Shown in pieces: positions 11,109-57,882 of a stretch of DNA of 64,000 bases. The stretch's first letter is position 1. Each line of letters begins with the position of its first letter. A program made the translations under genes and the position numbers. Below the pieces are notes generated by a model, which was not told where the DNA came from, ran no database searches, and was given only the letters and a program-made list of their open reading frames with translations. The DNA comes from Mycobacterium sp. (lineage in GTDB: Bacteria > Actinomycetota > Actinomycetes > Mycobacteriales > Mycobacteriaceae): assembly GCA_035996225.1 (NCBI GenBank), contig DASYJS010000370.1:3917-67916 (forward strand). Direction: 5' to 3'.

Positions 11109-11111
11109 TCA

Positions 11112-16202: not shown

Positions 16203-16217
16203 CGCCGCTGGCCTGAC

Positions 16218-43181: not shown

Positions 43182-43205
43182 TCTAAATCAACTGCTTGAC
43201 TTAAA
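43182..43205. promoter_or_regulatory. KstR2-like palindromic operator candidate (site A)
   Basis: TCTAAaTCAACTGCTTGAcTTAAA, 26 nt upstream of the SDR GTG. Contains a TTGACT -35-like hexamer. Confidence 0.45.
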
Positions 43206-43231: not shown

Positions 43232-44062
43232 GTGGTTAACGAATTGGATGGCAAGGTCGCCATCGTCACCGGTGGGGCCTCGGGCATCGGACGCGGCATC
43301 GTGGAGCGGTTTCTGGCCGAGGGCGCGCGCGTCGTCATCGCCGATCTCGAGGCCGACAGGGGAGAGGAGCTGGCCGCCTCGCGCGGAGCCCGCGCTCTTT
43401 TTCGCCGGACGGACGTCTCCGATCCCGAACAGGTTGGGACACTGGTAGCCACTACCGTCGAGAAGTTCGGCGGTCTGCACGTCATGGTGAACAACGCCGG
43501 GATTTCCAGCCCCCTAGGCCGATTGCTGGACGACGACCTGGCCGATTTTCACCGCGTGATGGGCGTGAACGTGCTGGGTGTGATGGCGGGTACCCGAGAT
43601 GCCGCGCGGCACATGGCCGAAAGCGGCGGCGGCTCCATCATCAACATGACCTCGATCGGCGGGATCCAGGCCGGCGGCGGCGTGATGACCTATCGCGCGT
43701 CCAAGGCCGCGGTCATCCAGTTCACCAAGTGTGCGGCAATTGAGTTGGCCTACCACGAGATTCGGGTCAACGCGATCGCGCCGGGCAGCATACCCACCCC
43801 GATTTTGGGTAAGTCGGCCGCTGGGATGGATCCAGATGAGTTGGCGCAGTTCGAGGCGCGGATTCGCCAGGGGATGCGCGATGACCGACCGCTGAAGCGC
43901 GAGGGTACGACCGACGACGTTGCCCAGGCCGCGCTGTACTTTGCCACCGACCGGTCCCGCTATGTCACCGGCACCGTGCTGCCAGTCGACGGGGGAACCT
44001 CGGCCGGCAAGCCGCTCCGCTCGAAGAAGCGCGCTGAACCTGACCTCGGTGACGCCGGCTAG
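43232..44062 (+). CDS. Short-chain dehydrogenase/reductase
   Basis: TGGASGIG, NNAG, YRASKAA. Confidence 0.88.
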   Translation: MVNELDGKVAIVTGGASGIGRGIVERFLAEGARVVIADLEADRGEELAASRGARALFRRTDVSDPEQVGTLVATTVEKFGGLHVMVNNAGISSPLGRLLDDDLADFHRVMGVNVLGVMAGTRDAARHMAESGGGSIINMTSIGGIQAGGGVMTYRASKAAVIQFTKCAAIELAYHEIRVNAIAPGSIPTPILGKSAAGMDPDELAQFEARIRQGMRDDRPLKREGTTDDVAQAALYFATDRSRYVTGTVLPVDGGTSAGKPLRSKKRAEPDLGDAG

Positions 44063-45072: not shown

Positions 45073-45218
45073 CCTCGCGTCACCTCCCTTCCGCACATTG
45101 CACTTCATCCTGTACAGACACCGGCCGAACGGGCCCACGGGGCGGTAGGCGGGCGCCACCTTCTTTCACGCCGCGGTGTCTACATCAGTAGTAGCTGACA
45201 ATCTAACGAGGAGAATCA

Positions 45219-45797
45219 ATGGGAAAGATCGTCATCAGCGAGAACGTCTCGCTCGACGGAGTCGTTCAGGATCCGACTGGTGAGGAGGGCTTCGCGCGCG
45301 GCGGCTGGTTCCTCCAGGTGGCAGACCAGGACCGCGAAGCGTGGGCCAAGCTCGAGTTCGACGAGGCACGGGCGGCCGAGGCCCTACTGCTCGGCCGTCG
45401 AAGCGACGAGTTTTTCGCCGCGCGCTGGCTATCTCGGAGTGGCGAGTGGGCGGACAGATTGAACAGTATGCCCAAGTACGTCATGTCCTCGAGAATCAAA
45501 GAGCCAAAGTGGAGCAACTCGACGGTCCTCAAGGGCGACGTGGTGCACGAGGTCTCGAAGCTGAAGGAGCAACTCGACGGCGACATCGTCGTCTACGCCA
45601 GCGCACAGCTCGTACATACGGTGCTGGAGCACGATCTCGTCGACGAACTGCGGCTGACCGTGTTCCCGGTTGTGGTTGGCGCCGGCGTGCGCCTCTTCGG
45701 CGCGACCAGCGACAAGAAACCCATGCGCCTCATCGAGAGCCGAACCGTCGGCGACGGCCTCGCCTTCCTTGTCTACCAGCCCGTCCGAGACGCCTAG
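45219..45797 (+). CDS. Dihydrofolate reductase-family protein (RibD C-terminal domain)
   Basis: MGKIVISENVSLDGVV..., LLLGRR, ELRLTVFPVVVGAG. Confidence 0.85.
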   Translation: MGKIVISENVSLDGVVQDPTGEEGFARGGWFLQVADQDREAWAKLEFDEARAAEALLLGRRSDEFFAARWLSRSGEWADRLNSMPKYVMSSRIKEPKWSNSTVLKGDVVHEVSKLKEQLDGDIVVYASAQLVHTVLEHDLVDELRLTVFPVVVGAGVRLFGATSDKKPMRLIESRTVGDGLAFLVYQPVRDA

Positions 45798-45809
45798 GCT
45801 CGCCGGACT

Positions 45810-45865
45810 CGAGCGTGACGGTGCAGTCACGTTCGGGGCCGAGCGTGACCGCAGGGTCACGCTCG
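45810..45865. repeat. Twin-hairpin REP-like / terminator-like element, copy 2
   Basis: CGAGCGTGAC-ggtgca-GTCACGTTCG followed by CGAGCGTGACC-gcag-GGTCACGCTCG (perfect 11 bp), 13 nt after the DHFR-family stop. Confidence 0.6.
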
Positions 45866-45887
45866 AGATGGACGCGCGGCGGACCCG

Positions 45888-45911
45888 TTTAAATCAAGCG
45901 CTTGACTTAAA
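45888..45911. promoter_or_regulatory. KstR2-like palindromic operator candidate (site B)
   Basis: TTTAAaTCAAGCGCTTGAcTTAAA, 11/12 symmetric half-site positions, 25 nt upstream of the TetR ATG. Confidence 0.5.
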
Positions 45912-45936: not shown

Positions 45937-46602
45937 ATGACCACGGCAGGCAGGGCCGTTCGCACCGAGCGGGCCAGCTCTACCCAGGAGGCGATCCTGG
46001 TGGCGGCCGAACGGCTGTATGCCGAGCACGGCATGTTCGCGGTGTCGAACCGGCAAGTCAGCGAGGCTGCGGGGCAGGGGAATAACGCCGCGGTGGGCTA
46101 TCACTTCGGTACCAAGGCCGACCTGGTGCGCGCCATCGAGGAGAAGCATCGCGGACCCGTCGAGGAGCTGCGCGAGCAGCTGGTGACCGAGCTACTGTCG
46201 TCGGGCGGCTCTGGCGAACTTCGGGACTGGGTGGCCTGCTTGGTACGCCCCCTGACCGACCACCTCGAGGACCTCGGCAACCCCACTTGGTACGCCCGCT
46301 TCGCGGCCCAAGCAATGACCGATCCGGCGTACTACAACATCATCGTCAGGGGCGCGCTCAGCTCACCATCGCTGGTGCAGGTCGTCGAGGGCATCAACCG
46401 CTGCCTGCCCAACCTGCCGACCGATGTCCACTTCGAGCGCAACATCATGGCACGAAACCTGTTGATGCACACCTGCGCCGATCGCGAACGTGCGCTCGTC
46501 GCGGGCGCTGCGATGGCCCAGCCCTCCTGGCGGGCAGCCGCATTCGGCCTCATCGATGCGATCGTGGGCCTGTGGCTGGCGCCGGTAACTCCGTACGAAT
46601 GA
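45937..46602 (+). CDS. TetR-family transcriptional regulator
   Basis: ILVAAERLYAEHGMFAVSNRQVSEAAGQGNNAAVGYHFGTKADL HTH region. ATG at 45937. Confidence 0.88.
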   Translation: MTTAGRAVRTERASSTQEAILVAAERLYAEHGMFAVSNRQVSEAAGQGNNAAVGYHFGTKADLVRAIEEKHRGPVEELREQLVTELLSSGGSGELRDWVACLVRPLTDHLEDLGNPTWYARFAAQAMTDPAYYNIIVRGALSSPSLVQVVEGINRCLPNLPTDVHFERNIMARNLLMHTCADRERALVAGAAMAQPSWRAAAFGLIDAIVGLWLAPVTPYE

Positions 46603-46808
46603 AGAGCATGCTGATGAAAGTGACTGTCGACCAGAACATTTGCGCATCCTCGGGTAATTGCGTGATGAATGCGCCCGAGGTGTTCGACCAGCGTGACGAA
46701 GACGGCGTCGTCGTCCTACTCGATGAGGAGCCGTCCGCCGAGCAGACCGAAGGTGTACGCCAAGCAGCCGCGGCGTGCCCTGCACAGGCCATCTACCTCG
46801 AGGAATGA
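46599..46808 (+). CDS. Small [3Fe-4S]/[4Fe-4S] ferredoxin (P450 redox partner type)
   Basis: KVTVDQNICASSGNCVMNAPEVF...AAAACPAQAI. ATGA overlap with TetR (alternative ATG at 46614). Confidence 0.85.
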   Translation: MKSMLMKVTVDQNICASSGNCVMNAPEVFDQRDEDGVVVLLDEEPSAEQTEGVRQAAAACPAQAIYLEE

Positions 46809-46809
46809 A

Positions 46810-48063
46810 ATGTCAGACGCACTGACGAGCACCGGGATTTCTGGGACTGAGTCGAACTCCGAGATTCCGGATTATCCGATGGCCCGCAACGAGGGCTGCC
46901 CGTTCGCCCCACCCCCGGACGTCATGGCCCTGGCCGAAGAGCGGCCGCTGTCCCGGGTTCGGATCTGGGACGGCAGCACACCGTGGCTCATCACGGGTTA
47001 CGAGCAGGTGCGCGAGCTGTTCTCCGATTCCCGGGTCAGCGTCGATGACCGGGTGCCCGGCTTTCCGCACTGGAACGAAGGCATGTTGTCGACCGTGCAC
47101 AAGCGGCCCCGGTCGGTGTTCACCGCCGACGGCGAAGAGCACACCCGGTTCCGGCGGATGCTGTCCAAGCCGTTCACCTTTCGGCGCGTAGAAGGCCTAC
47201 GGCCGACGATCCAGCAGCTCACCGATGAGCACATCGACACGATGCTGGCCGGGCCGCAACCGGCGGACGTCGTCTCCGCGATCGCACTGCCGGTCCCGTC
47301 CTTGGTGATCAGCCAGATGCTGGGCGTGCCATACGAGGACGCCGAGATGTTCCAGCACCACGCCAATGTCGGCCTCGCGCGGTACGCCGCCGCCGAGGAC
47401 ACCATGAAAGGTGCGATGAGCCTGCACAAGTACCTGGCTCAGCTCGTCGAAGCAAAGATGGAAAACCCGGCCGAGGATGCTGTTTCCGACCTCGCCGAAC
47501 GGGTCAAGGCCGGTGAGCTCAGCGTCAAAGAAGCCGCGCAACTGGGCACCGGATTGCTGATCGCCGGGCACGAAACCACTGCGAACATGATCGGGCTCGG
47601 CGTCCTTGCGCTGCTGCTGAACCCCTCCCAGGCGGCCATCGTCCGCAATGCCGACGATCCCAAAGTTCTCGCCAACGCGGTCGAGGAGTTGCTGCGCTAC
47701 CTCAGCATCATCCAGAACGGCCAGCGCCGCGTCGCTCTGGAAGACATCCACATCGCCGGAGAGACCATCCGCGCGAACGACGGCATCATCATCGACCTGG
47801 CCCCGGCGAACTGGGATGCGGACGCCTTTACCGAGCCCGACCGGCTCTACTTGCACCGCTCGGGGGCCGACCGCAATGTCGCATTCGGCTACGGTCGCCA
47901 CCAGTGCGTGGGACAGCAGCTTGCCCGTGCGGAGTTGCAGATCGTGTACCAAAACTTGTTCCGTCGCATCCCGACCATGGCACTGGCCGTGCCGATCGAA
48001 AAGATCCCGTTCAAACACGACCGGCTCGCCTTTGGCGTCTACGAACTACCGGTTACCTGGTAA
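46810..48063 (+). CDS. Cytochrome P450
   Basis: I-helix AGHETT, EELLRY (ExxR), heme loop FGYGRHQCVGQQLA. The ATG is 1 nt after the ferredoxin stop. Confidence 0.92.
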   Translation: MSDALTSTGISGTESNSEIPDYPMARNEGCPFAPPPDVMALAEERPLSRVRIWDGSTPWLITGYEQVRELFSDSRVSVDDRVPGFPHWNEGMLSTVHKRPRSVFTADGEEHTRFRRMLSKPFTFRRVEGLRPTIQQLTDEHIDTMLAGPQPADVVSAIALPVPSLVISQMLGVPYEDAEMFQHHANVGLARYAAAEDTMKGAMSLHKYLAQLVEAKMENPAEDAVSDLAERVKAGELSVKEAAQLGTGLLIAGHETTANMIGLGVLALLLNPSQAAIVRNADDPKVLANAVEELLRYLSIIQNGQRRVALEDIHIAGETIRANDGIIIDLAPANWDADAFTEPDRLYLHRSGADRNVAFGYGRHQCVGQQLARAELQIVYQNLFRRIPTMALAVPIEKIPFKHDRLAFGVYELPVTW

Positions 48064-48125
48064 GCGAAATCGATTGAGCAGCCCGCGATTACTCCTCAAA
48101 TCCCGATCCGACTGGAGGGTCAATA

Positions 48126-49298
48126 ATGTCAACGCCGACAAGCACCGCTTCGCTCTACCCACCCGGGGGCTACGGCGCTCCGAAGGATCGCCGCGGGCAC
48201 GCGGCAGACAGCGATGTGGGTCTGCCGGAAGGGACAGTGGTCTTTTCGGCTGACAACCACATCTCCCTGGCCGACGACATCTTCTACGACCGTTTCCCCG
48301 ACGACCTCAAGGACAAGGCACCGCGGATCTGGTACGAGGACGGCGCCTACCAAGTTGGGCGCAAAGGGCAGTCGTTTTTGCCGGGCGACTTCAGCGCCGT
48401 GCTGATGCAGTACGACGATCTGCCCGGAGCAGCGAGCACCAACATCGAGGCCCGGATCCAGGAGTTGCATGACGACGGCGTCGAGAAGGAGCTGGCCTTC
48501 CCCAATGCCGTGCTGGCGCTGTTCCACTACCCGGACAAGAAACTTCGTGAGCTGACGTTCCGCATCTATAACGAATACATGGCCGAACTCCAGGAACGCT
48601 CGAACGGCCACTTCTATGGTGCCGGACTGATCAACTGGTGGGACCCGCAAGGCGCCAGGAAGACGCTGGAAGAGCTGAAATCGTTAGGGCTCAAGACGTT
48701 CCTGATGCCACTGAACCCCGGCAAGGACGACGAGGGCAACCCGATCGATTACTCGAGCACGTCGATGAGCGCCGTCTGGGACGAGATCGAGGCCGCCGGC
48801 CTCCCGATCACGCACCACATCGGCGAAACCCCGCCGAAAAGCCCGACCGAGTTCAACAGCGTCGTGGTCGGCATGATGATCAACATCGACGGGTTCCGGG
48901 AAACGTTCGCCAAGTACATCTTTGGCGGCATCCTCGACCGGCACCCGTCGCTGCGTCTCGGCTGGTTCGAGGGCGGCATCGCTTGGGTGCCGTGGGCGCT
49001 GCAGGACGCCGAGCACCTGGTGGCGTCCTATCAGCACATGTTCAATCGGCCGCTGGAACATGATGTGCGCTACTACTGGGACAACCACATGAGCGCATCG
49101 TTCATGGTCGACCCACTGGGCTTGCAATTGATCGACCAGATCGGCGTGGACAAGGTCATGTGGTCCAGCGACTACCCGCACAACGAAAGCACCTACGGCT
49201 ATTCCGAAAAATCATTGAAAGCCGTTGTCGACGCCGTCGGGCCGGCGAACGCGGCGAAGATCGTCAGCGACAACATCACGAAGTTCTTGGGTCTGTAG
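48126..49298 (+). CDS. Amidohydrolase_2 family protein (paralogue of 16218-17483)
   Basis: FSADNHISLADD, HHIGE, WSSDYPHNES. Confidence 0.85.
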   Translation: MSTPTSTASLYPPGGYGAPKDRRGHAADSDVGLPEGTVVFSADNHISLADDIFYDRFPDDLKDKAPRIWYEDGAYQVGRKGQSFLPGDFSAVLMQYDDLPGAASTNIEARIQELHDDGVEKELAFPNAVLALFHYPDKKLRELTFRIYNEYMAELQERSNGHFYGAGLINWWDPQGARKTLEELKSLGLKTFLMPLNPGKDDEGNPIDYSSTSMSAVWDEIEAAGLPITHHIGETPPKSPTEFNSVVVGMMINIDGFRETFAKYIFGGILDRHPSLRLGWFEGGIAWVPWALQDAEHLVASYQHMFNRPLEHDVRYYWDNHMSASFMVDPLGLQLIDQIGVDKVMWSSDYPHNESTYGYSEKSLKAVVDAVGPANAAKIVSDNITKFLGL

Positions 49299-50542
49299 TG
49301 ACGACGTTCGCCCAACTGGATACCAGCACCGGTAACGGACTGGTGATTCCCGAAACACCCGACTTGGCGCGCCTGCGCCGCGAGACGGGGGCCCGGCTGC
49401 GAACGGCCATGGCCGACCGCAGCATCGACGCGATGATCCTGCTCGGCAACAACGCCGTGGTCTACGCCACCGGTGCCAGTTGGCCGCTCGGCGACGCCGG
49501 CCTGTCCTACGTCGAGCGACCGGTGGCCGTGGTGGTCGCCGGCGACGAGTGGCCGCACCTGTTCCTGCCGTTCCGTGAGGGGGCCTCGCACGAGGCGGAC
49601 CTGCCCGCCGATCATTTGCACGGGCCGGTCTATCTCGAATTCGAGGAAGGCGTGGCCAATTTCGCGCGGACGGTTGCCGGCCTGATTCCGCCCGGAGCGG
49701 TAATCGCGGTCGACGAGTGTACGGGTGCGATGTCTCGTGCCGCGAATCTGTTGTTCCCCAACGGTGCTCCCGTCGATGCCGCGGCCATCGTCAGTGCGGC
49801 GAAGTTGGTCAAAACCCCGGACGAGTTGTCGTGCATGCGCACCGCCATTCGGATCACCGACGAAGCCATGGTCGAAGTCCACAAGCAACTGGCACCCGGG
49901 ATTCGTCAGATCGACTTGTCGGCAAGCTTTTTGCGCCGCGCCTTCGAGTTGGGGGCTACGGCCAGCATGCTCGAACCGATCTGGCAGGTGATGCCGCCGA
50001 GCAAGGCCGAGGGCGTGTGGACCACGCACGGTGACCTGGCGCTGCCACTGTTGAGCACCGAGCGCGAGCTGGTCGAAGGTGATGTGCTGTGGACCGACGT
50101 CAGCATCACGTACCAGGGCTACTGCTCTGACTTCGGGCGCACCTGGATCGTCGGCCATGATCCGTCGCCGCGTCAGCAGGCGCAGTTCGACAAATGGTTC
50201 GAGATCATCAGCGCGGTTCTGGGTGTCGCCAAGGCCGGCGCCACCGCGGCAGACCTGGGGCGGGCCGCGATCAAGGCCAATGGCGGCACTAAGCCGTGGC
50301 TGCCGCACTTCTACCTGGGCCATGGTATCGGCGTCAATGCCGCCGAAATGCCGATGATTGGAACAGATCTCGGCCAAGACTTCGATGAGAGCTTCGTCCT
50401 TCAATCCGGAATGGTGCTGGTTCTGGAGCCCGTGGTGTGGGAAGACGGCACCGGCGGCTATCGCAGCGAAGAGGTCCTGGTGATTACCGAGGAAGGCTGG
50501 ATCCGCTTGACCAACTACCCCTATGACCCCTATGGCAACTGA
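49298..50542 (+). CDS. M24-family metallopeptidase/creatinase-like hydrolase with a complete metal site
   Basis: All five pita-bread ligand positions are present: WTDVS, CSDFGRT, GHGIG, LVLEPV, SEEVLVIT. The GTG shares one base with the upstream TAG. Confidence 0.85.
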   Translation: MTTFAQLDTSTGNGLVIPETPDLARLRRETGARLRTAMADRSIDAMILLGNNAVVYATGASWPLGDAGLSYVERPVAVVVAGDEWPHLFLPFREGASHEADLPADHLHGPVYLEFEEGVANFARTVAGLIPPGAVIAVDECTGAMSRAANLLFPNGAPVDAAAIVSAAKLVKTPDELSCMRTAIRITDEAMVEVHKQLAPGIRQIDLSASFLRRAFELGATASMLEPIWQVMPPSKAEGVWTTHGDLALPLLSTERELVEGDVLWTDVSITYQGYCSDFGRTWIVGHDPSPRQQAQFDKWFEIISAVLGVAKAGATAADLGRAAIKANGGTKPWLPHFYLGHGIGVNAAEMPMIGTDLGQDFDESFVLQSGMVLVLEPVVWEDGTGGYRSEEVLVITEEGWIRLTNYPYDPYGN

Positions 50543-51659
50543 AGTCCTGCCCGACGAGCGCACGCTGCGCTCGGGGCGTCGCCAGCGGGCGCTAGACCAG
50601 ATGGCGGCACACGATCTCGATGTCCTGGTCCTCGGCCGGCAAGCCAACGTCCGTTACGTAACCGGGGCGCCGCAACTGTGGGTAGCCGGGACCCGGCCGT
50701 TCGGCCCGACCTGCGTGCTCGTGCGTCAGACGGGTGCCGTGCACCTACTGAGCACCTGGGATGAGGGCGTCCCCGACGACATCCCCCACGAAAACCTCTA
50801 TGGCATTTCGTGGAATCCGATGAACACCATGTCGGCGCTGCGGCGCATCGACGGTGCGGCAACCGCCCTGCGCGTCGGAACCGATGCGCTCTCACCGGTT
50901 TTCGCCAAGCTCCTGCCGACGGCGTTCCCCAACGCACAGCTGGTCGACGGAGAGTTGGCCATGCGGGCTGCCCGCCGGATCAAGACGGCTGAGGAGATCG
51001 CCGCGCTGCGGGAATCCGTCGCGGTGGTCGAATCGGCTCTGGCGGCCGCGGTACCGGAGTTGCGACCAGGGGTAAGCGAACAGGCGCTGGCCGGCGTCTT
51101 GCTGGAAGCCTCGGCGGCCGGCGGGGTGAGTACGCCGGCGAATCAAGATGTCGCATGGGTGACTTCGCGCGAGCATCCGTGGCGACGGGCCAACGGTGAC
51201 GGTCGTATCCAGGACGGTGATCTGGTGGCGTTTTCCGCCGGAGTCCTGGCGGGTGGCTATGTCGGCGAGGTAGGCCGTACCTGGCCGGCAGACAAGAGGC
51301 ATGCGCCCAACGGCGCCGCGGCGCTGTACGTGCGCTGGGAGAGTCTGTGGGGCAAGTTGATCGCTGCCTGCCGGCCTGGCGCGGGAGCGGACGAACTGCT
51401 TGCCGCCTACCACGCCGCCGGGGAAGCGGAGCCGCCGATGCCGGTGGCCCGCGGCCTGGGCATGGGATTCGACCCGCCCGTCGTCTCCAAGCACCTGCCC
51501 GCGACCGCGGCCGACGAACGTTTGGAGCCGGGGATGGTGCTCGCCGTCACGGGGTACGTGTGGGAAGAAGGACTCGGCGCGGTATTCGGGCGGGAAGCGG
51601 TCCTGATTACCGCCGACGGCTCCGAAGTGCTTACCGTGAGCCCGTTCTGGCAGCAGTGA
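50523..51659 (+). CDS. M24-family homologue with a degenerate metal site
   Basis: Equivalent positions read AFSAG (D to S), VGEVGRT (D to E), GLGMG (H to L), LAVTGY (E to T), REAVLIT (E kept). Overlaps the upstream M24 gene by 20 nt. Confidence 0.8.
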   Translation: MTPMATEVLPDERTLRSGRRQRALDQMAAHDLDVLVLGRQANVRYVTGAPQLWVAGTRPFGPTCVLVRQTGAVHLLSTWDEGVPDDIPHENLYGISWNPMNTMSALRRIDGAATALRVGTDALSPVFAKLLPTAFPNAQLVDGELAMRAARRIKTAEEIAALRESVAVVESALAAAVPELRPGVSEQALAGVLLEASAAGGVSTPANQDVAWVTSREHPWRRANGDGRIQDGDLVAFSAGVLAGGYVGEVGRTWPADKRHAPNGAAALYVRWESLWGKLIAACRPGAGADELLAAYHAAGEAEPPMPVARGLGMGFDPPVVSKHLPATAADERLEPGMVLAVTGYVWEEGLGAVFGREAVLITADGSEVLTVSPFWQQ

Positions 51660-54070
51660 CGCAACGCCGTATCGAACCGCCGCTGGCCGGCTATGCGGTG
51701 ATCGATCTGTCCACCGGTATAGCGGGTGCCTACTGCACCAAGTTGCTCGCCGATGGCGGCGCCGATGTCGTCAAAATCGAATCGCCCCAGGGCGATCCGC
51801 TGCGGGCGTGGTCGGCCTCGGGCGCCGCCATCCCGACCGACGGCGACGGCGCATTGTTCAGCTTCTTAGCCGGTGGGAAACATAGTGTCGTCGCCGATCC
51901 CAGCAAGGACGACGACACCGAACTGGTGAACCTGCTACTCGCATCGGCGGATGCGGTGGTCTGGTCTGCCGGTTCGAAAGTCGCTGAGCACCCGGACTTT
52001 ACGCCGCACGCCATCCATGGCCGCCACCCGCATCTCACCCTTACCTCGATTACCCCGTTCGGGCTGGAAGGTCCCTGGCGCGACCGCGCCGCGACCGAGT
52101 TCACGCTGCAGGCATGGTCGGGAGGAATAGTCGGGCTCGGACGTGGCGAGCAGGAACGGGCGCCCGTCTTCGTCGGCGGTCAAGTCGGTGAGTACCTGGC
52201 CGGAGCCTACGCAAGCGCGGCCACCTTGGCATCGCGATACCGCCGAATCGACGGCGGGGCGGGAGAACTGCTTGACCTTTCGATGCTCGAAACACAGATC
52301 TTGTGCCTCACGTATTACCCGGTGACCTACTTCGAAGTGCTCGGGCGGCCCTGGCGAGACACCCGCCGGCCGACGGTGCCCGGCGTGGCTCAAGCCAAAG
52401 ACGGCCTGGTGGATCTCGGCTGTGGGACGGCCCAGCAGTGGTTCGACTTGTGCGCGATGGTGGGCCACCCGGAGTGGATCGACGAGGAGTCACCACTGTC
52501 GATCACCGAGCTGGCCAACGTCTACGCCGACGAGATCTTTGACTGGATGGCCAGCACCCCGGTCGACGAAATCCGGGAACTGGCCACGGCATTCCGCATC
52601 CCCAACGCGCCTGTCGCCAACGGTGCGAATGTCACGGCACTTGATCAGTTTGCGGAGCGTGCTTCGTTCGTACGCAATCCCCGCGACGGCTTCCAACAGC
52701 CGGGTCACCCGTATCGGATGCGGCCCGCGCAGTTGCGCCAGCCGCATCCGGCCCCGCGGCTGGGGGAGCACACCGAGCATTACCGCGCCGCGAACCTGTC
52801 GCCACGGCCCGAAACGACCGGGGTCGCGAAATCTCTGCCGTTCAAGGGCCTTCGGGTAGTGGACATGACGACGTTCTGGGCGGGGCCCTGCTGCACCCAC
52901 TTTCTGGCCATGCTCGGTGCCGAGGTCATCCACGTCGAATCCACCCGTCGCCCGGATGGCACTCGGCTGATCGCCGGCGTACCGATCACCGAGGACCAGT
53001 GGTGGGAAAAGTCGCCGATCTTCGAGGCCCTGAACACCAACAAGAAGGGCCTCACACTGGACCTGCAGAGCCCGCGCGGACGGGAGTTACTGCGTCGGCT
53101 CATCGCAACATGCGACGTCGTCGTGGAAAACTTCACGCCGCGGGTGCTCGATCAGATCGGCCTGGACTTCGCCGCGATTCAATCGATTCGGCCGGATGCG
53201 GTGATGATGCGGATGCCCGGCTTCGGCCTCGACGGGCCGTGGCGCGACAACCCGGCATTCGCCTACGTCATCGAATCCGCGTCCGGCGTGAGTTGGCTCA
53301 CCGGTTATCCGGACCGCACGCCGTATGACCCGTATTCGATCGGTGACCCGAATGCGGGCGTGCATGCGCTCAATGCGCTGCTGCTGGCGCTGGAGCACCG
53401 CCGCCGCACCGGCGAGGGGGTGTTCGTCGAAGCGGCGATGGTCGATGCGGCGCTCAGCATATCCGCCGAGCAGATCGTCGAGTACTCGGCGTACGGCGCA
53501 CTGCTGGAGCGTGCCGGCAACCGGGGCCCAACTGCCGCGCCCCAGAACCTTTACCGCAGCGCCGATATCGACGAATTCGGCCGGCTCGATAGCTGGGTCG
53601 CCATCGCCGTGGCAACCGATGATCACTGGGGAAGGCTCTGCCGGGCACTCGGATCACCCTCGTGGGCAATCGATCCCACGCTATCGACCCAGGCCGGCCG
53701 GCGGATGCACGAGGATTCCATCGATGAGCACCTCGCTGCCTGGTGCGAGAACCGCAGCCGCGGCGAGATCGTCGCAACCCTGTGGGGTGCCGGCGTGCCG
53801 GTGGCCAAGGTCCTGCAACCGCATCGGCAAACCGAGTTGGAGCAGTTGGCTTTTCGCGGCTTCTTCGAAGAAGTCGAGCATCCGGTGAACGGGCGGGCCA
53901 GGCTCAGCACCGTGCCGATGAGGTTGTCCGGCGGTCCCGAGCTTTTTCACGCGAATCCCGCACCCACACTGGGACAGCACAACCACGAGTTGCTGGCCGA
54001 GTTGGGCTTGACCCCGGCAGAGATCGCGGACCTGGAAGCCGACGGAGTCATCGGCCAGGTGCCGACCTGA
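51656..54070 (+). CDS. Tandem-fused double family III CoA-transferase (about 804 aa)
   Basis: Two complete CaiB/BaiF-like halves: LAGYAVIDLSTGIAGAYCTKLLADGGADVVKIE... and FKGLRVVDMTTFWAGPCCTHFLAMLGAEVIHVE... GTGA overlap at 51656. The first 103 aa of the track ORF are rejected. Confidence 0.85.
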   Translation: MTQRRIEPPLAGYAVIDLSTGIAGAYCTKLLADGGADVVKIESPQGDPLRAWSASGAAIPTDGDGALFSFLAGGKHSVVADPSKDDDTELVNLLLASADAVVWSAGSKVAEHPDFTPHAIHGRHPHLTLTSITPFGLEGPWRDRAATEFTLQAWSGGIVGLGRGEQERAPVFVGGQVGEYLAGAYASAATLASRYRRIDGGAGELLDLSMLETQILCLTYYPVTYFEVLGRPWRDTRRPTVPGVAQAKDGLVDLGCGTAQQWFDLCAMVGHPEWIDEESPLSITELANVYADEIFDWMASTPVDEIRELATAFRIPNAPVANGANVTALDQFAERASFVRNPRDGFQQPGHPYRMRPAQLRQPHPAPRLGEHTEHYRAANLSPRPETTGVAKSLPFKGLRVVDMTTFWAGPCCTHFLAMLGAEVIHVESTRRPDGTRLIAGVPITEDQWWEKSPIFEALNTNKKGLTLDLQSPRGRELLRRLIATCDVVVENFTPRVLDQIGLDFAAIQSIRPDAVMMRMPGFGLDGPWRDNPAFAYVIESASGVSWLTGYPDRTPYDPYSIGDPNAGVHALNALLLALEHRRRTGEGVFVEAAMVDAALSISAEQIVEYSAYGALLERAGNRGPTAAPQNLYRSADIDEFGRLDSWVAIAVATDDHWGRLCRALGSPSWAIDPTLSTQAGRRMHEDSIDEHLAAWCENRSRGEIVATLWGAGVPVAKVLQPHRQTELEQLAFRGFFEEVEHPVNGRARLSTVPMRLSGGPELFHANPAPTLGQHNHELLAELGLTPAEIADLEADGVIGQVPT

Positions 54071-54085: not shown

Positions 54086-54937
54086 TTAGTGGCTCCACCC
54101 CTCGGCGGCCTGGTCGTCGAAGGCGCGGTCGATGCGTTCGAACCGGCGCTTGACCGAATTCCGGGCCGCCTGGTGCGGCAGGATGTACAACCGGTTGGCC
54201 AGAATCGCGTCGGCTGTCAGCCGCGCCACGTCGTCCACCGACACTTTTTCATCCTGAGTCGGCGGAAGCGGTCCGAACGCACTCGTCACGTCGGGCGCTG
54301 ACGCGAGTCCGTAATCCGCGCCGCGGATGCGTTCGGAGTTGGAGACCAGCTTCGTTTCGACGACCATCGGACACAGCACCGAGACGCCGATGCCGTTGTC
54401 CTTGACCTCGCGGGCCAGCGTCTCGGCCAGGCCGACAACGCCATATTTGGCAACGCCGTATGCCCCCAGGCCGGCGTTGGGTACCAGTCCGGCAAAGGAC
54501 GCGGTAAAGGCGATGTGGCCGCCGGTGCCCTGCGCGATCAACTTCGGCACGAACGCCTCCACGGCGTGGATCGAACCCCACAAATCGATATCGATCACCC
54601 ACCGCCAGTCCTCGTGCGTCATATCCACGAGCGGACCCGCGACAACGATGCCGGCGTTGCTGAAAACGACGTCGACCTGGCCGAGCAGGCGGAACGCCTC
54701 ATCCGCGAGATGAACCATCTCCTCGAGATGCCGCACGTCACACGTCACGCCGTGGGCGTCGACCCCCTCGGCCTTCAGGTGCGCCACGGCCCGTTCCAAC
54801 GTGGGCTTGTCGACGTCGGCCAGTACCACCCGGGCTCCGCGGCGGGCGAGTTCGGTGGCGGTGGCCAACCCGATGCCGCCTGCACCGCCGGTAATCACGG
54901 CACCGCGCCCCGCGAAATCAGATAGGAATCCGTCCAT
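54086..54937 (-). CDS. Short-chain dehydrogenase/reductase
   Basis: ITGGAGGIG, SNAG, YGVAKYG. ATG at 54937. Confidence 0.88.
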   Translation of the reverse strand: MDGFLSDFAGRGAVITGGAGGIGLATATELARRGARVVLADVDKPTLERAVAHLKAEGVDAHGVTCDVRHLEEMVHLADEAFRLLGQVDVVFSNAGIVVAGPLVDMTHEDWRWVIDIDLWGSIHAVEAFVPKLIAQGTGGHIAFTASFAGLVPNAGLGAYGVAKYGVVGLAETLAREVKDNGIGVSVLCPMVVETKLVSNSERIRGADYGLASAPDVTSAFGPLPPTQDEKVSVDDVARLTADAILANRLYILPHQAARNSVKRRFERIDRAFDDQAAEGWSH

Positions 54938-55054
54938 AGATTCCGAGCGTATTACCCGTTGCCCCGACGATTTGATCCCGGTACAACCGAGCATCCAACC
55001 AAGTATGAGCGCCTCATATAGATAGGGCACTAACTATTAGGGTACTATATAAAT

Positions 55055-55546
55055 GTGGCCACCCTGACTGCACGTGAGATTGATCCGCTTGCCCTGGAAC
55101 ACCAGGTGTGCTTCGCGCTGGCGACCACCAACCGGGCGGTCTTGGCGGTGTACCGCCCTCTGCTGGAGCCGCTCGGCCTGACCCATCCGCAATACCTGGT
55201 GATGCTGGCACTGTGGGACCACCGCAAGAACCCCGCGGCGGAGCAGTCGCCGCTGTCGGTCAAGCAGATTGCCGCCGCATTGCAGATGGATTCGGCCACG
55301 CTCTCGCCGATGCTCAAGCGCTTGGAGGGGCTGGGCCTGATCACTCGTGCCAAGAAGGCCACCGACGAGCGCACGACCGATGTGACGCTCACCGAGCGCG
55401 GAATCTCCTTGCGCAAGCGGGCACTTGAGATTCCGCCCGCCGTCGTGGCACGTCTGGGTGTCGAGCTGGCCGAACTGGAGAACCTGCATCGGGTCCTCAC
55501 CCGCATCAACGCGGCCGCTTTGGCGGCCGGCGCCTTGCAATCCTGA
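55055..55546 (+). CDS. MarR-family regulator, OhrR-like (redox-sensing Cys)
   Basis: LEHQVCFALATTNRAVLAVYRPLLEPLGLTHPQYLVMLALW matches the OhrR N-terminal Cys motif. GTG start immediately after TATATAAAT, so possibly leaderless. Confidence 0.82.
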   Translation: MATLTAREIDPLALEHQVCFALATTNRAVLAVYRPLLEPLGLTHPQYLVMLALWDHRKNPAAEQSPLSVKQIAAALQMDSATLSPMLKRLEGLGLITRAKKATDERTTDVTLTERGISLRKRALEIPPAVVARLGVELAELENLHRVLTRINAAALAAGALQS

Positions 55547-55564
55547 CAACCCTGAGGAGCTACC

Positions 55565-55981: not shown

Positions 55982-55984
55982 GGG

Positions 55985-56824
55985 CTACTTCAGACAGCTG
56001 CCCGCATCGATGGGCAGTGTCACGCCGGTGATGTAGCGCGCCTCGTCGGAGACGAAGAACAGCACCGCATTGCTGATGTCGATGGGGTCGACCCACGGAA
56101 TCGGCAGCGTGTGGAACATCTGACAGATCGGCGCCATGTCGTCGGGCCCGGGATTTTCCAGGTCTGGACGGAACATCTTCCACGTGCCCTCATTCATGAT
56201 CATCCCGGTGCTCACATGGGTGGGATGCACGGAGTTGACCCGAATCATGTGCTGTCCCAGTTCGACGGCGAAGGAGCGCATAATGCCCACCACGCCGTGC
56301 TTAGCGGCGACGTAGTTGCCGCAGTGAGGGTAGGCCTTGAGGCCGCCGACCGAGCTGGTCAATACAATCGAACCGCCGTTGCCACCCGCAATCAAATGCG
56401 GCACACCGGCTTTCACTGACTTCCACACACCCGACAGGTTGATATCAATCATTTCCTGCCAGTCGTGTTCACTGCATTGGTCCAGAGTGTCGCCACCGTT
56501 GCCGATGCCGGCGTTGGCCACGATGATGTCCAGCCGGCCCAACTGCTCCACACCGGTATCCACCGCGGCCTTCATCGCGTCGTAATCGCGCACGTCGACC
56601 TCGGCCGTGAAGATTCTGCGGTTGTGACTCTTGACGAGATCGGCGGTCTCCGCCAGATCCTCGGGCGTTGCCGCCGGGATGGTGGTGTTCTCCACAATGG
56701 GCTTGCAGACGTCAATCGCGATGATGTCGGCGCCCTCTTGCGCCAACCGCACCGCGTGGCTGCGGCCCTGACCAAGCGCCGCTCCGGTGACGAAAGCAAC
56801 TTTGCCTTCAACACGTCCCGTCAT
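55985..56824 (-). CDS. Mycofactocin-coupled SDR-family oxidoreductase (carveol dehydrogenase-like)
   Basis: MTGRVEGKVAFVTGAALGQGRSHAVRLAQEGADIIAIDVC, YVAAKHG, and the characteristic long insert. ATG at 56824 with GAGG upstream. Confidence 0.83.
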   Translation of the reverse strand: MTGRVEGKVAFVTGAALGQGRSHAVRLAQEGADIIAIDVCKPIVENTTIPAATPEDLAETADLVKSHNRRIFTAEVDVRDYDAMKAAVDTGVEQLGRLDIIVANAGIGNGGDTLDQCSEHDWQEMIDINLSGVWKSVKAGVPHLIAGGNGGSIVLTSSVGGLKAYPHCGNYVAAKHGVVGIMRSFAVELGQHMIRVNSVHPTHVSTGMIMNEGTWKMFRPDLENPGPDDMAPICQMFHTLPIPWVDPIDISNAVLFFVSDEARYITGVTLPIDAGSCLK

Positions 56825-57016
56825 CACTACCTCAATTCCCGATCTGATCCAACCGGCATGTCTCAGCGGAGAACGGCCGGCATCGTGTCTCTCGCAGGAA
56901 CCGCGTGCGCCCCGTTCCCGGGGGAGCGGGGAGGGTGCCGCCACTGAACTCTGTCATCACCCGCCAACGAGTGTCAACGACGAATCCGTTTCGGCTATTT
57001 GCAATTCTATATATTA

Positions 57017-57847: not shown

Positions 57848-57882
57848 GGACCATGTGTCGGAGATTGTAACTTGCTCGCTAC

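What the first reader, a model, noticed from the sequence alone, without database searches (positions are those of the whole stretch)
45937..54070. Seven-gene translationally coupled operon: TetR, ferredoxin, P450, amidohydrolase, two M24 proteins and a double CoA-transferase
Most consecutive genes overlap or nearly abut: ATGA, a 1-nt gap, a shared base (TAGTG), a 20-nt overlap and GTGA. The exception is the 62-nt gap before the amidohydrolase. I do not recognise this combination as a described pathway. It contains a P450 with a dedicated 3Fe-4S-type ferredoxin, an ACMSD/LigW-type amidohydrolase, a creatinase/prolidase-fold pair and an 804-aa fused family-III CoA-transferase. It suggests hydroxylation followed by hydrolytic or decarboxylative processing of a CoA-activated substrate. 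Of everything in this window, it best fits the description of an uncharacterised multi-enzyme system.
Basis: inference. Interest (0 to 1): 0.65.

Follow-up and report, generated by a model that had tools for sequence, protein, structure and literature searches.

The report
Conserved mycobacterial oxygenase–hydrolase–CoA operon
This is a real, tightly packed and widely conserved operon of soil mycobacteria that probably breaks down an unidentified bulky organic acid. Its "amidohydrolase" carries the marks of a two-metal oxygenase, and its substrate and its paired M24 enzyme are still uncharacterised.

Summary
The same order and spacing recur in 74 of 80 Mycobacterium genomes, so the operon is real.

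The interpretation needs three corrections.
- The "ACMSD/LigW amidohydrolase" carries both signature motifs of amidohydrolase-related dinuclear oxygenases (PtmU3/DitZ type). It is predicted to be a second oxygenase, not a hydrolase or decarboxylase.
- The M24 pair is one metal-competent subunit plus one subunit that has lost all five metal ligands. This pairing is conserved across several phyla.
- The fused CoA-transferase keeps the catalytic Asp only in its C-terminal half.

The P450 and ferredoxin are orthologues of M. marinum CYP105Q4/Fdx9. These have been studied, but no substrate is known.

The unit is also larger than reported. A conserved 24-bp palindrome precedes both tetR and an upstream SDR gene (43232-44062). 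A crotonase gene present in about half of the relatives has been deleted here.

A cassette SDR–oxygenase–M24αβ–crotonase–CoA-transferase also occurs in Acidimicrobiia, Frankiales and Streptomyces.

Best reading: O2-dependent catabolism of a hindered, possibly alicyclic or terpenoid/steroid-like, CoA-activated acid. The substrate is unknown, and I found no published pathway that matches.

The parts
43182..43205 (+). Second copy of the operator-like palindrome (TCTAAATCAACTGCTTGACTTAAA). It lies 27 nt before the GTG start of the SDR0 gene.
   Evidence: The window has two sites and none is expected by chance. A second site is present in 63 related loci. It shares its promoter layout with the tetR site (alignment A2).
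43232..44062 (+). SDR0: a classical short-chain dehydrogenase, 276 aa. It is probably a co-regulated member of the system and lies directly upstream of tetR in other species.
   Evidence: Pfam adh_short_C2. NCBIfam gives only generic SDR matches. Orthologues above 70% identity occur in 66 loci, next to tetR. It is also found with the cassette in M. branderi, Acidimicrobiaceae and Streptomyces.
45888..45911 (+). A 24-bp AT-rich palindrome, TTTAAATCAAGCGCTTGACTTAAA, 26 nt before the tetR ATG. It is the likely operator of the TetR repressor and overlaps a TTGACT -35-like hexamer.
   Evidence: Inverted repeat I5. Conserved with at most 3 changes in 74 loci at the same place. Invariant core in alignment A2.
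45937..46602 (+). TetR-family regulator, 221 aa. It is the first gene of the operon and overlaps the ferredoxin start by ATGA.
   Evidence: PF00440 and PF17939. The ATGACCAC start is conserved while the upstream sequence varies.
46599..46808 (+). Fdx9-type single-cluster ferredoxin, 69 aa, with motif C15-x-x-S18-x-x-C21...C60-P. It is the predicted [3Fe-4S] electron carrier for the P450 and possibly also for the dinuclear oxygenase.
   Evidence: Fer4_13/15. The C-S-C-C pattern is invariant in 75 of 75 orthologues. M. marinum Fdx9 (CxxSxxC, partner of CYP105Q4) binds [3Fe-4S] with a potential near -360 mV (PMC6237146).
46810..48063 (+). Cytochrome P450 of subfamily CYP105Q, 417 aa. It is the orthologue of M. 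marinum CYP105Q4.
   Evidence: 801 bits and 84.6% identity to PDB 8SWL. The haem-Cys motif FGYGRHQCVG is present, and the Cys is conserved in 75 of 75 orthologues.
48126..49298 (+). Amidohydrolase-related dinuclear oxygenase (ARO) of PtmU3/DitZ type, 390 aa. It is annotated elsewhere as 'amidohydrolase'. It follows the only real intergenic gap (62 nt) and has a GGAGGG ribosome-binding site.
   Evidence: PF04909. Motifs D43-N-H45, H230/H231, E282 and D349-Y-P-H352-N-E354 align to the PtmU3 and DitZ ligands. They are invariant in 76 of 77 orthologues. Motif definitions come from PMC13154177.
49298..50542 (+). M24a: a creatinase/prolidase-fold protein, 414 aa, with a complete dimetal site. It is the presumed catalytic subunit.
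   Evidence: PF01321 and PF00557. D267, D278, H342, E377 and E391 align to P. furiosus prolidase (1PV9) at the positions I recall as its metal ligands, D209/D220/H284/E313/E327. The DDHEE pattern is present in 96 of 96 homologues, including those in other phyla.
50523..51659 (+). M24b: a paralogous creatinase/prolidase-fold protein, 378 aa, 29% identical to M24a. It has lost all five metal ligands (S238, E249, R310, T343, R357). It is the presumed non-catalytic or structural partner.
   Evidence: Pfam. Pairwise alignment with M24a. No homologue has DDHEE. Representatives down to about 35% identity are also degenerate.
51656..54070 (+). Fused double family III CoA-transferase, 804 aa. The C-terminal half has the catalytic Asp (D564). 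The N-terminal half has Glu179 at that position.
   Evidence: Two PF02515 domains. The halves match the two subunits of benzylsuccinate CoA-transferase 9FN0. D564 aligns to E. coli YfdW Asp169. The halves are 29% identical. The E/D pattern is present in 78 of 81 orthologues.
55985..56944 (-). SDR2: a mycofactocin-coupled SDR, 319 aa. It is a probable accessory dehydrogenase of the system.
   Evidence: TIGR03971 scores 382.6 bits against a cut-off of 300. A 74%-identical orthologue sits immediately after M24b in the rearranged M. branderi cluster.

Best explanation
This is a TetR-repressed operon, with a co-regulated upstream SDR gene. I think it encodes an O2-dependent route for degrading or transforming a bulky, sterically hindered carboxylic acid through its CoA thioester. 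The substrate could be alicyclic or terpenoid/steroid-like.

Shown by sequence:
- gene order, overlaps and their conservation
- the shared operator palindrome
- a CYP105Q4/Fdx9-type P450 and [3Fe-4S] ferredoxin pair
- a PtmU3/DitZ-type dinuclear oxygenase signature in the 'amidohydrolase'
- an M24 pair made of one metal-competent and one ligand-less subunit
- a fused CoA-transferase with one canonical active-site Asp

Inferred steps:
1. An inducer releases TetR from the palindromes in front of tetR and SDR0.
2. The P450, fed by the ferredoxin, hydroxylates the hydrocarbon skeleton.
3. The CoA-transferase, through its C-terminal active site, moves CoA from a donor such as succinyl-CoA onto the acid.
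4. The dinuclear oxygenase, possibly reduced by the same ferredoxin, hydroxylates an unactivated C-H. PtmU3 does this on a CoA-bound diterpenoid whose hindered carbon blocks ordinary beta-oxidation.
5. SDR0 and the mycofactocin-coupled SDR oxidise the new alcohols to ketones.
6. The M24a/M24b heterodimer carries out a metal-hydroxide-dependent hydrolytic or lyase step on the oxidised intermediate. This step is the least understood.
7. The crotonase found in relatives handles a hydration or C-C cleavage step. In this lineage that step is dispensable or supplied from elsewhere in the genome.
For: Operon and conservation.

Operator shared by tetR and SDR0.

P450 and ferredoxin identity.

Oxygenase call:
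- Both defining motifs are present, and PtmU3 and DitZ are by far the best solved relatives.
- The motif residues are invariant in 76 of 77 orthologues.
- The x of D-x-H is the hydrophilic Asn, as in the diiron 'high-potential' class.
- PtmU3 accepts CoA-ligated diterpenoid substrates (PMC7782822).

CoA chemistry:
- There is a fused CoA-transferase.
- A crotonase gene sits between M24b and the transferase in 42 of 80 mycobacterial loci and in nearly all non-mycobacterial versions.
- An acyl-CoA ligase follows the cluster in Streptomyces.

Catabolic rather than biosynthetic setting:
- No PKS, NRPS or terpene synthase lies within 10 kb in the Streptomyces locus.
- In Acidimicrobiaceae the cassette sits beside a flavoprotein that passes the NCBIfam cut-off for 3-ketosteroid delta-1-dehydrogenase (804 against 789 bits). 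A second P450, a ferredoxin and a MarR regulator are also there.

M24 heteromer:
- The pair is adjacent and overlapping. One subunit always has DDHEE and the other never does, across Actinomycetota, Binatota, Acidobacteriota and Proteobacteria.

SDR linkage: SDR0 and SDR2 travel with the core even where the order is rearranged.
Against: No substrate is known.
- M. marinum CYP105Q4 gave no spin shift with an extensive panel of compounds (PMC6237146).
- The steroid/terpenoid-like guess rests on family resemblance (PtmU3, DitZ, KstD-like neighbour) in relatives, not on anything in this window.

The order of steps is inferred from gene content only.

The CoA-transferase is not always linked to the core.
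- M. branderi has fdx-P450-ARO-M24a-M24b without the orthologous transferase beside it. Only a distant fused paralogue and a crotonase lie 6 kb away.
- The oxygenase and M24 enzymes may therefore act on the free acid.

M24 enzymes of known function act on small polar carboxylates or peptides, not on CoA esters.

The crotonase has been lost repeatedly, which weakens any scheme that needs it.

Co-transcription has not been demonstrated.
Confidence: 0.5

Rival explanations
1. This is catabolism of a small polar or zwitterionic carboxylate, such as a betaine-, sulfonium-, amidino- or unusual amino-acid-type compound. The M24 enzyme would be the key hydrolase or lyase, as in creatinase, ectoine hydrolase DoeA and the DMSP lyase DddP. 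The CoA-transferase, crotonase and nearby acyl-CoA dehydrogenase would work like CaiB, CaiD and CaiA of carnitine metabolism, or like the fused two-domain CoA-transferase/lyase DddD. The dinuclear oxygenase would hydroxylate a small acid, as AibH2 and SfbO do.
For: - The best NCBIfam hit of M24b, and a good hit of M24a, is DddP. DoeA and creatinase also match.
- Characterised AROs include enzymes acting on 2-aminoisobutyrate and a sulfonate.
- An Opp-type ABC transporter lies near the Acidimicrobiaceae cassette, and an indoleamine dioxygenase lies next to the M24 pair in a Binataceae MAG.
- The DddD and CaiBDA analogies come from my own knowledge and were not tested here.
Against: - All these matches are far below the curated cut-offs.
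- The oxygenase is much closer to the diterpenoid hydroxylases PtmU3 and DitZ (95 and 86 bits) than to the next-ranked Amidohydro_2 chains (35 bits or less).
- It has the PtmU3-like terminal Glu.
- CYP105 P450s typically take large hydrophobic substrates.
- A KstD-type dehydrogenase and several SDRs suit ring or alcohol oxidation better than betaine chemistry.
Confidence: 0.15
2. This is a tailoring or remodelling module for an endogenous lipid or secondary metabolite, not a catabolic pathway. The P450 and dinuclear oxygenase would decorate a CoA-bound intermediate, as CYP105 enzymes and PtmU3 do in natural-product biosynthesis.
For: - The CYP105 family and PtmU3 are best known from biosynthesis.
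- About 1,600 of roughly 17,000 AROs lie in predicted biosynthetic clusters (PMC13154177).
- The M. branderi version lies among MmpS/MmpL lipid exporters, further P450s and a TauD dioxygenase.
Against: - No scaffold-building gene (PKS, NRPS, terpene synthase) lies next to the cluster in the window, in Streptomyces or in Acidimicrobiaceae.
- A TetR repressor as first gene, a CoA-transferase, a crotonase and SDRs are typical of inducible catabolism.
- The cassette is spread over many soil actinobacteria with very different secondary metabolism.
Confidence: 0.15
3. The P450 hydroxylates the substrate, and an ACMSD/LigW-type amidohydrolase then hydrolyses or decarboxylates it.
For: The protein belongs to PF04909, which contains ACMSD and LigW. 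Weak matches to them exist, at E 1e-5 to 5e-4.
Against: - The protein has the D-x-H and D-x-P-H-x-E oxygenase motifs instead of the motifs of the hydrolases and decarboxylases.
- These residues are invariant across orthologues.
- PtmU3 and DitZ score about 20 orders of magnitude better.
Confidence: 0.05
4. This is not one functional system. It would be a syntenic run of unrelated genes (a P450/ferredoxin pair, peptidases, a CoA-transferase) that stay together only through shared ancestry within one genus.
For: - Most conservation evidence comes from one genus, where synteny is expected.
- The crotonase is dispensable.
- The transferase is unlinked in M. branderi.
Against: - Overlapping reading frames are kept across species.
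- ARO-M24a-M24b-crotonase-CoA-transferase plus SDR0 is kept together at only 50-70% identity in Acidimicrobiia, Frankiales and Streptomyces, with changed surroundings.
- The core is kept in the rearranged M. branderi locus together with SDR0 and SDR2.
- A common operator precedes both transcription units.
Confidence: 0.05

Closest known systems
CYP105Q4 and ferredoxin Fdx9 (Mmar_4763) of Mycobacterium marinum
   Same: The P450 is 84.6% identical over its full length to the crystallised CYP105Q4 (8SWL). The ferredoxin has the same CxxSxxC(x)nCP motif and the same position directly upstream of the P450.
   Different: That work treated the pair as an orphan electron-transfer system. No substrate was found, and in the text I could read the downstream oxygenase, M24 and CoA-transferase genes were not discussed. 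The 2024 structure paper was not available to me.
PtmU3 (platensimycin/platencin biosynthesis) and DitZ (diterpenoid hydroxylase): amidohydrolase-related dinuclear oxygenases
   Same: They share the TIM-barrel PF04909 fold and all metal-ligand motifs. The terminal Glu is as in PtmU3, and the hydrophilic residue in D-x-H is as in the diiron class. As with PtmU3, the enzyme is associated with CoA-thioester chemistry.
   Different: The similarity is remote: 95 and 86 bits, with many mismatches in the printed alignments (I did not compute identity). The genomic partners differ: an M24 heterodimer, a fused CoA-transferase and a 3Fe-4S ferredoxin. The substrate and metal content are unknown.
Benzylsuccinate CoA-transferase BbsEF (heteromeric family III CoA-transferase, PDB 9FN0)
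   Same: The C-terminal half is most similar to chain B (175 bits) and the N-terminal half matches chain A (79 bits). The fusion therefore mimics a two-subunit family III enzyme.
   Different: It is one polypeptide rather than two. It is only distantly related, sits in an aerobic oxygenase-rich context, and its N-half carries Glu where the catalytic Asp would be.
DddD (fused double class III CoA-transferase/lyase) and DddP (M24-fold DMSP lyase) of marine bacteria; CaiB/CaiD of carnitine metabolism
   Same: These show precedents for the architecture and folds: a tandem CoA-transferase fusion, a non-peptidase M24 enzyme, and a CoA-transferase paired with a crotonase. DddP is the best NCBIfam hit of M24b. 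The rest is from my own knowledge.
   Different: Scores are far below the family cut-offs (57 bits against 600). No DddD match was reported. The organisms are soil actinobacteria, and the cluster carries two oxygenases.
Prolidase / aminopeptidase P / creatinase (M24B pita-bread enzymes)
   Same: Both proteins have the two-domain creatinase-N plus pita-bread fold, and M24a has the full five-residue dimetal site.
   Different: Those enzymes are homo-oligomers, as far as I know. Here a catalytic subunit is always encoded with a ligand-less paralogue. M24a also has Ala where prolidase has the His of its HE motif (alignment). The context is oxygenase and CoA genes rather than peptide metabolism.

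Membership tests
Amidohydrolase-related dinuclear oxygenases (ARO; PtmU3, DitZ, AibH2, SfbO) | PF04909 (Amidohydro_2) TIM-barrel scaffold with at least about 200 residues before the C-terminal motif | tested here: met
   PF04909 at E 1.2e-21. The motif starts at residue 349 of 390.
Amidohydrolase-related dinuclear oxygenases (ARO; PtmU3, DitZ, AibH2, SfbO) | N-terminal D-x-H motif on the first beta strand (site 1 ligands) | tested here: met
   D43-N44-H45 aligns with D-S-H of PtmU3 and D-D-H of DitZ. It is invariant in orthologues.
Amidohydrolase-related dinuclear oxygenases (ARO; PtmU3, DitZ, AibH2, SfbO) | C-terminal D-x-P-H-x-D/E motif (site 2 ligands), which is absent from characterised hydrolases and decarboxylases of the fold | tested here: met
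   D349-Y-P-H352-N-E354 aligns with DYPHLE of PtmU3 and DYPHSD of DitZ.
Amidohydrolase-related dinuclear oxygenases (ARO; PtmU3, DitZ, AibH2, SfbO) | Two bound metal ions and O2- and reductant-dependent C-H hydroxylation | not testable with these tools
   This needs metal analysis, EPR or Mössbauer spectroscopy, and an activity assay.
   The protein has the oxygenase motifs instead. LigW and ACMSD match only at E 1e-5 to 5e-4, against 3e-26 for PtmU3.
Cytochrome P450 subfamily CYP105Q | More than 55% identity to a named subfamily member (the usual P450 nomenclature rule, from my own knowledge) and the haem-thiolate motif FxxGxHxCxG | tested here: met
   84.6% identity to CYP105Q4 (8SWL) over 416 aligned positions. 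FGYGRHQCVG is present.
Fdx9-type P450-associated [3Fe-4S] ferredoxins (CxxSxxC(x)nCP) | The cluster-binding motif with Ser at the variable position, small size, and a gene adjacent to a P450 gene | tested here: met
   C15-A-S-S18-G-N-C21 ... C60-P, 69 aa, 1 nt before the P450. The definition comes from PMC6237146. The cluster type itself cannot be tested here.
M24 metallopeptidase-fold enzymes with an active dimetal centre | Five metal ligands Asp, Asp, His, Glu, Glu | tested here: met
   M24a has D267, D278, H342, E377 and E391. They align to D209, D220, H284, E313 and E327 of 1PV9 (the identity of these 1PV9 residues as ligands is from my own knowledge). Invariant in 96 of 96 homologues.
M24 metallopeptidase-fold enzymes with an active dimetal centre | Five metal ligands Asp, Asp, His, Glu, Glu (second protein, M24b) | tested here: not met
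   M24b has S238, E249, R310, T343 and R357 at these positions. It has the fold but is not a metal-site member.
Family III (CaiB/BaiF/Frc) CoA-transferases | The PF02515 domain and the catalytic Asp that forms the acyl-aspartyl anhydride (Asp169 of Frc and YfdW) | tested here: met
   In the C-terminal half, D564 in SIGDPNAG aligns to LGDSNTG of YfdW (chain residue 171 = native 169).
Family III (CaiB/BaiF/Frc) CoA-transferases | The same catalytic Asp in the N-terminal half | tested here: not met
   Glu179 occupies the aligned position, and this holds in 78 of 81 orthologues. Whether Glu can substitute for Asp is untested.
Mycofactocin-coupled SDR (TIGR03971), for the gene at 55985-56944 | A score above the curated cut-off of the subfamily model | tested here: met
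   382.6 bits against a cut-off of 300. I did not check whether the organism has mycofactocin genes.
Operon (single transcription unit) | One transcript spanning all seven genes | tested here: inconclusive
   Overlapping frames and the lack of internal terminator-like sites favour it. No RNA run holds this sequence. Fragments about 88% identical in a peat metatranscriptome cover the P450, oxygenase and M24a genes. One contig, from a run whose RNA nature is only guessed, crosses the oxygenase/M24a junction.

The most novel reading that the evidence does not exclude
The ARO-M24a/M24b trio is the core of an undescribed way to get past a carbon that blocks beta-oxidation.
- A diiron TIM-barrel oxygenase installs the hydroxyl. 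It would be reduced by a low-potential [3Fe-4S] ferredoxin, which would identify a redox partner for the 'high-potential' AROs; their neighbourhoods largely lack the Rieske ferredoxin seen beside other AROs.
- A new class of heteromeric, non-peptidase pita-bread enzyme then performs a C-C or C-heteroatom cleavage on the oxidised, CoA-linked intermediate. It has one catalytic subunit and one ligand-less subunit.
- This cassette would be widespread in soil Actinomycetota and in non-tuberculous mycobacteria, and absent from M. tuberculosis.
Probability: 0.25. Interest if true: 0.75.

Novelty: new variant of a known kind. Interest (0 to 1): 0.55.

Why it matters
The finding gives the orphan CYP105Q4/Fdx9 pair of M. 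marinum a concrete genomic context and suggests why substrate screens failed. The real substrate may be a pathway intermediate, perhaps CoA-bound.

It adds a large, well-conserved actinobacterial group to the recently defined dinuclear oxygenase superfamily. It also offers a candidate physiological electron donor for the diiron class, whose neighbourhoods largely lack the Rieske ferredoxin seen beside other AROs.

It points to an uncharacterised heteromeric M24 enzyme, one active subunit plus one degenerate one, found in at least four phyla.

The conserved TetR operator gives a practical handle. The repressor can serve as a biosensor to find the inducer and hence the substrate.

The cluster is common in environmental and opportunistic mycobacteria. 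The published table lists no M. tuberculosis counterpart for the ferredoxin.

Tried and rejected
- Direct RNA evidence. No RNA run holds the window sequence or the M. gastri orthologue. Laying four distant runs at 80% likeness gave only short fragments of relatives. I treat this as weak support at most.
- A word-indexed homologue search with M24a returned only near-identical mycobacterial proteins and no useful names. The representative search with M24b, followed by genome scans with distant representatives, was what reached other taxa.
- Literature searches found no description of the cluster. The terms covered the gene numbers around Mmar_4763, M24 heteromers and pita-bread non-peptidases, and further AROs. 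The search for 'DitZ' was swamped by a surname. The CYP105Q4 structure paper is not held.
- The consensus promoter scan found no sigma-70-like site. The conserved TTGACT-N17-TTGACT/TTAACT layout before both start codons may be a promoter giving a very short leader, or it may be extra repressor half-sites. I could not decide between these.
- I considered the 305-aa membrane protein gene divergent from SDR0 (42187-43104) as a member and rejected it. It is conserved in only 8 close relatives.
- I considered SDR1 (54086-55030), tetR2 and the acyl-CoA dehydrogenase (57110-59190). They are syntenic only within Mycobacterium and are absent from the M. branderi, Streptomyces and Acidimicrobiaceae versions, so I left them out.
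- Structure prediction was not run. Only single sequences from the window could be submitted, and the sequence motifs already answered the questions asked.

Full report
**1. The observation**

The seven + strand reading frames translate without interruption at the coordinates given:
- tetR 45937-46602
- ferredoxin 46599-46808
- P450 46810-48063
- Amidohydro_2 protein 48126-49298
- M24a 49298-50542
- M24b 50523-51659
- a double CoA_transf_3 protein 51656-54070

Pfam confirms every family. The window has about 65% G+C and comes from a soil-metagenome Mycobacterium. The best match is a MAG at 95% protein identity, and DNA runs from soil metagenomes hold up to 95% of the sampled 31-letter words.

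**2. Conservation**

I used the CoA-transferase to fetch 80 loci from GTDB species representatives. All are Mycobacterium or unclassified Actinomycetota MAGs.
- In 74 of them the whole series tetR-fdx-P450-Amidohydro_2-M24a-M24b-CoA-transferase is present in the same order. The other six contigs are too short to tell.
- Junction spacing is conserved. tetR/fdx is mostly -4 nt and fdx/P450 is +1 to +5. P450/oxygenase always has a 40-67 nt gap, and oxygenase/M24a is -1 or -4. M24a/M24b is -20 in 73 of 76 loci (starts projected from the alignments).
- No + strand terminator-like site lies inside the unit.

The 'not conserved as a unit' refutation therefore fails.

Co-transcription itself could not be tested.
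- No RNA run holds this sequence or the M. gastri orthologue.
- A peat metatranscriptome contains fragments about 88% identical over the P450, oxygenase and M24a genes.
- One contig, from a run whose RNA nature is only guessed, crosses the oxygenase/M24a junction.

**3. The P450 and ferredoxin are known orphans**

The P450 is 84.6% identical over its full length to crystallised CYP105Q4 of M. marinum (8SWL). The ferredoxin has the motif CxxSxxC...CP, invariant in 75 of 75 orthologues.

Child et al. 2018 (PMC6237146) list Mmar_4763 = Fdx9 (CxxSxxC(x)nCP) as the partner of CYP105Q4.
- It is present in M. ulcerans, with no M. tuberculosis counterpart listed.
- Fdx9 binds a [3Fe-4S] cluster with a potential near -360 mV.
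- None of an extensive range of compounds shifted the spin state of CYP105Q4.

The 2024 structure paper is cited by others as leaving the function open. I could not read it.

**4. The 'amidohydrolase' is predicted to be an oxygenase**

- Its best solved relatives are PtmU3 (E 3e-26) and DitZ (2e-23), both C-H hydroxylases. LigW and ACMSD appear only at 1e-5 to 5e-4.
- The 2026 survey of amidohydrolase-related dinuclear oxygenases (PMC13154177) defines the superfamily by two motifs: an N-terminal D-x-H and a C-terminal D-x-P-H-x-D/E. It states that the latter is not found in any characterised hydrolase or decarboxylase of PF04909.
- The window protein has D43-N-H45 and D349-Y-P-H352-N-E354. It also has the intervening His and Glu ligands. 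All align with PtmU3 and DitZ and are invariant in 76 of 77 orthologues.
- The terminal residue is Glu, as in PtmU3. The x of D-x-H is hydrophilic, as in the diiron 'high-potential' class.
- PtmU3 takes CoA-ligated diterpenoid substrates (PMC7782822).

The same survey notes that Rieske ferredoxins are largely missing from the neighbourhoods of this class. A 3Fe-4S ferredoxin in the same operon is therefore a candidate electron donor. This is inference.

**5. The M24 pair is asymmetric**

- M24a aligns to P. furiosus prolidase with Asp, Asp, His, Glu and Glu at all five ligand positions: D267, D278, H342, E377 and E391.
- M24b is 29% identical to M24a and has S, E, R, T and R at those positions.
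- Across 96 homologous pairs M24a always reads DDHEE and M24b never does.
- A search of 1.8 billion representatives found 222 M24b-like clusters at E below 1e-30. The full-length ones I aligned, down to about 35% identity, are almost all degenerate.

Genome scans with two distant representatives showed the adjacent M24a-M24b pair in Binataceae, Acidobacteriota, a proteobacterial MAG and many Acidimicrobiales. In Acidimicrobiales it usually sits beside an unrelated P450, SDRs, a thioesterase and a ChsH2-like thiolase fusion. A catalytic subunit plus a ligand-less paralogue is thus an old, conserved module. I found no paper describing it.

**6. The CoA-transferase is also asymmetric**

- The C-terminal half resembles chain B of benzylsuccinate CoA-transferase, and the N-terminal half resembles chain A.
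- The catalytic Asp of family III enzymes (YfdW Asp169) aligns with D564. The equivalent position in the N-half is Glu179.
- This pattern is present in 78 of 81 orthologues.

**7. The system is larger than seven genes, and this lineage has edited it**

*Operator.* A 24-bp AT-rich palindrome (45888-45911) lies 26 nt before the tetR start and is conserved in 74 loci. A second copy (43182-43205) precedes the SDR gene at 43232-44062. The window has two sites where none is expected by chance, and 63 loci have a second site. The two upstream regions share the layout palindrome-N12-TTGACT/TTAACT-N7-start codon.

*SDR0.* In other species this SDR lies directly in front of tetR. The window has a private 1.85-kb insertion (44034-45887) carrying an ECF sigma/SnoaL gene and a RibD_C gene. 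Even the 95% relative lacks it.

*Crotonase.* In 42 of 80 mycobacterial loci a 331-aa crotonase gene sits between M24b and the CoA-transferase. The window has none anywhere. Different deletion scars in different species show repeated loss.

*M. branderi.* On an 864-kb replicon, M. branderi has MarR-fdx-P450-oxygenase-M24a-M24b, followed by the orthologue of the window's mycofactocin-coupled SDR (55985-56944). SDR0 lies a few kb away. A crotonase and a distant fused CoA-transferase lie 6 kb upstream.

**8. Outside Mycobacterium**

About 35 loci carry SDR0 ... oxygenase-M24a-M24b-crotonase-CoA-transferase at 50-70% identity. They come from Acidimicrobiaceae, Ilumatobacteraceae, Frankiales and Mycobacteriales MAGs.
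- In the loci I inspected, a divergently transcribed flavoprotein, an unrelated P450 and often a small ferredoxin lie in between.
- The flavoprotein passes the NCBIfam cut-off for 3-ketosteroid delta-1-dehydrogenase (804 against 789 bits).

Streptomyces fulvoviolaceus has tetR-fdx-P450 (60%)-SDR0-oxygenase-M24a-M24b-crotonase-CoA-transferase followed by an acyl-CoA ligase. No scaffold-building gene lies within 10 kb. The crotonase is divergent and below every curated cut-off. It has weak resemblance to hydratase/lyase, BadI and MenB types.

**9. Interpretation**

The conserved core is two oxygenases with a ferredoxin, several alcohol dehydrogenases, a metal hydrolase or lyase heterodimer, a CoA-transferase, and sometimes a crotonase. 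All of it is under a ligand-responsive repressor.

The most economical reading is an inducible aerobic route for a hindered carboxylic acid handled as a CoA thioester. In that route the dinuclear oxygenase does what dehydrogenase plus hydratase cannot do at a blocked carbon, as PtmU3 does. Three things lean towards an alicyclic or terpenoid/steroid-like substrate: the PtmU3/DitZ affinity, the KstD-type neighbour in relatives, and the CYP105 family. That part is a guess, at roughly one in three.

The main rival is a small polar carboxylate, by analogy with creatinase, DoeA and DddP, with DddD, and with CaiB/CaiD. Those analogies rest on very weak scores or on my memory. A biosynthetic tailoring role is possible but lacks any scaffold gene.

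**10. Novelty**

All the folds are known, and the P450/ferredoxin pair has been studied. What I did not find described:
- the combination of genes
- the oxygenase identity of the 'amidohydrolase' in this cluster
- the asymmetric M24 heteromer
- the half-degenerate fused transferase
- the shared operator

I rate it a new variant of a known kind (an inducible oxidative, CoA-dependent catabolic operon) and of moderate interest. The upside comes if the M24 heteromer or the ferredoxin-oxygenase coupling proves to be new enzymology.

Noticed in passing
window 44034-45887: A lineage-specific 1.85-kb insertion lies between the SDR0 gene and the tetR operator. It carries an ECF-type sigma factor with a SnoaL domain (44059-45159, - strand) and a RibD_C protein (45219-45797, +). 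None of the related loci has these genes here, not even the 95%-identical MAG. The insertion replaces the last ~10 codons of SDR0.
   Followed up: partly
window 45811-45864 and 16150-16203: A tandem pair of G+C-rich palindromes (GAGCGTGAC-N6-GTCACGYTC, twice) sits at the right edge of the insertion. A similar tandem pair occurs 30 kb away. This may be a small dispersed repeat or hairpin element of this genome.
   Followed up: partly
L001 about 9960-10010; L003, L009, L012, L016 about 9950-10000; window 51656: The crotonase gene between M24b and the CoA-transferase has been lost by different deletions. The window and L024 have a clean removal with a GTGA overlap. In L001 the crotonase start codon and its first ~9 codons run straight into the CoA-transferase N-terminal sequence (I did not check the reading frame). 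Several species keep only the 3' end of the crotonase gene. This points to repeated, independent loss.
   Followed up: partly
L081 (M. branderi pJCM12687, 550071-575243): A rearranged version of the cluster lies on an 864-kb linear replicon. It has two MarR regulators instead of TetR. It sits among MmpS/MmpL transporters, three further P450 genes, several SDRs and a TauD dioxygenase. An unannotated fused CoA-transferase paralogue lies at locus positions 1945-4271.
   Followed up: partly
L088-L098 (Acidimicrobiales MAGs): A more distant M24a-M24b pair (about 45-50% identity) is followed by a different P450 and an SDR. A ferredoxin, a 4HBT thioesterase, GFO/IDH/MocA oxidoreductases and a ChsH2-like OB-fold/thiolase fusion lie nearby. 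The M24 heteromer seems to recur with P450s in several otherwise different clusters.
   Followed up: partly
L084 (Binataceae MAG) 4286-12513: Here the M24a-M24b pair lies between an Amidohydro_3 protein and an indoleamine 2,3-dioxygenase-family gene, with another Amidohydro_2 gene nearby. This context is quite different from the actinobacterial one.
   Followed up: no
window 55037-55985: The coding assignment is ambiguous. A 271-aa - strand ORF has no family match and has homologues only in some relatives. Two shorter + strand ORFs (55055-55546 and 55565-55981) have the higher third-position G+C.
   Followed up: no
window 57110-59190 and 60415-63168: A divergent TetR and acyl-CoA dehydrogenase pair (pimeloyl-CoA dehydrogenase-like) lies here, with a second acyl-CoA dehydrogenase, a SnoaL_4 protein and an Amidohydro_1 protein downstream. 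They are syntenic with the operon within Mycobacterium but not elsewhere.
   Followed up: partly
L083 (Sphingomonas sp. JE1 plasmid pJE1) 7347-11083: A P450-EthD-SDR-'amidohydrolase' run, 39% identical to the window oxygenase, lies next to thiolase, acyl-CoA ligase and 3-hydroxyacyl-CoA dehydrogenase genes on a catabolic plasmid. This is another P450 plus dinuclear-oxygenase pairing, without M24 genes.
   Followed up: no
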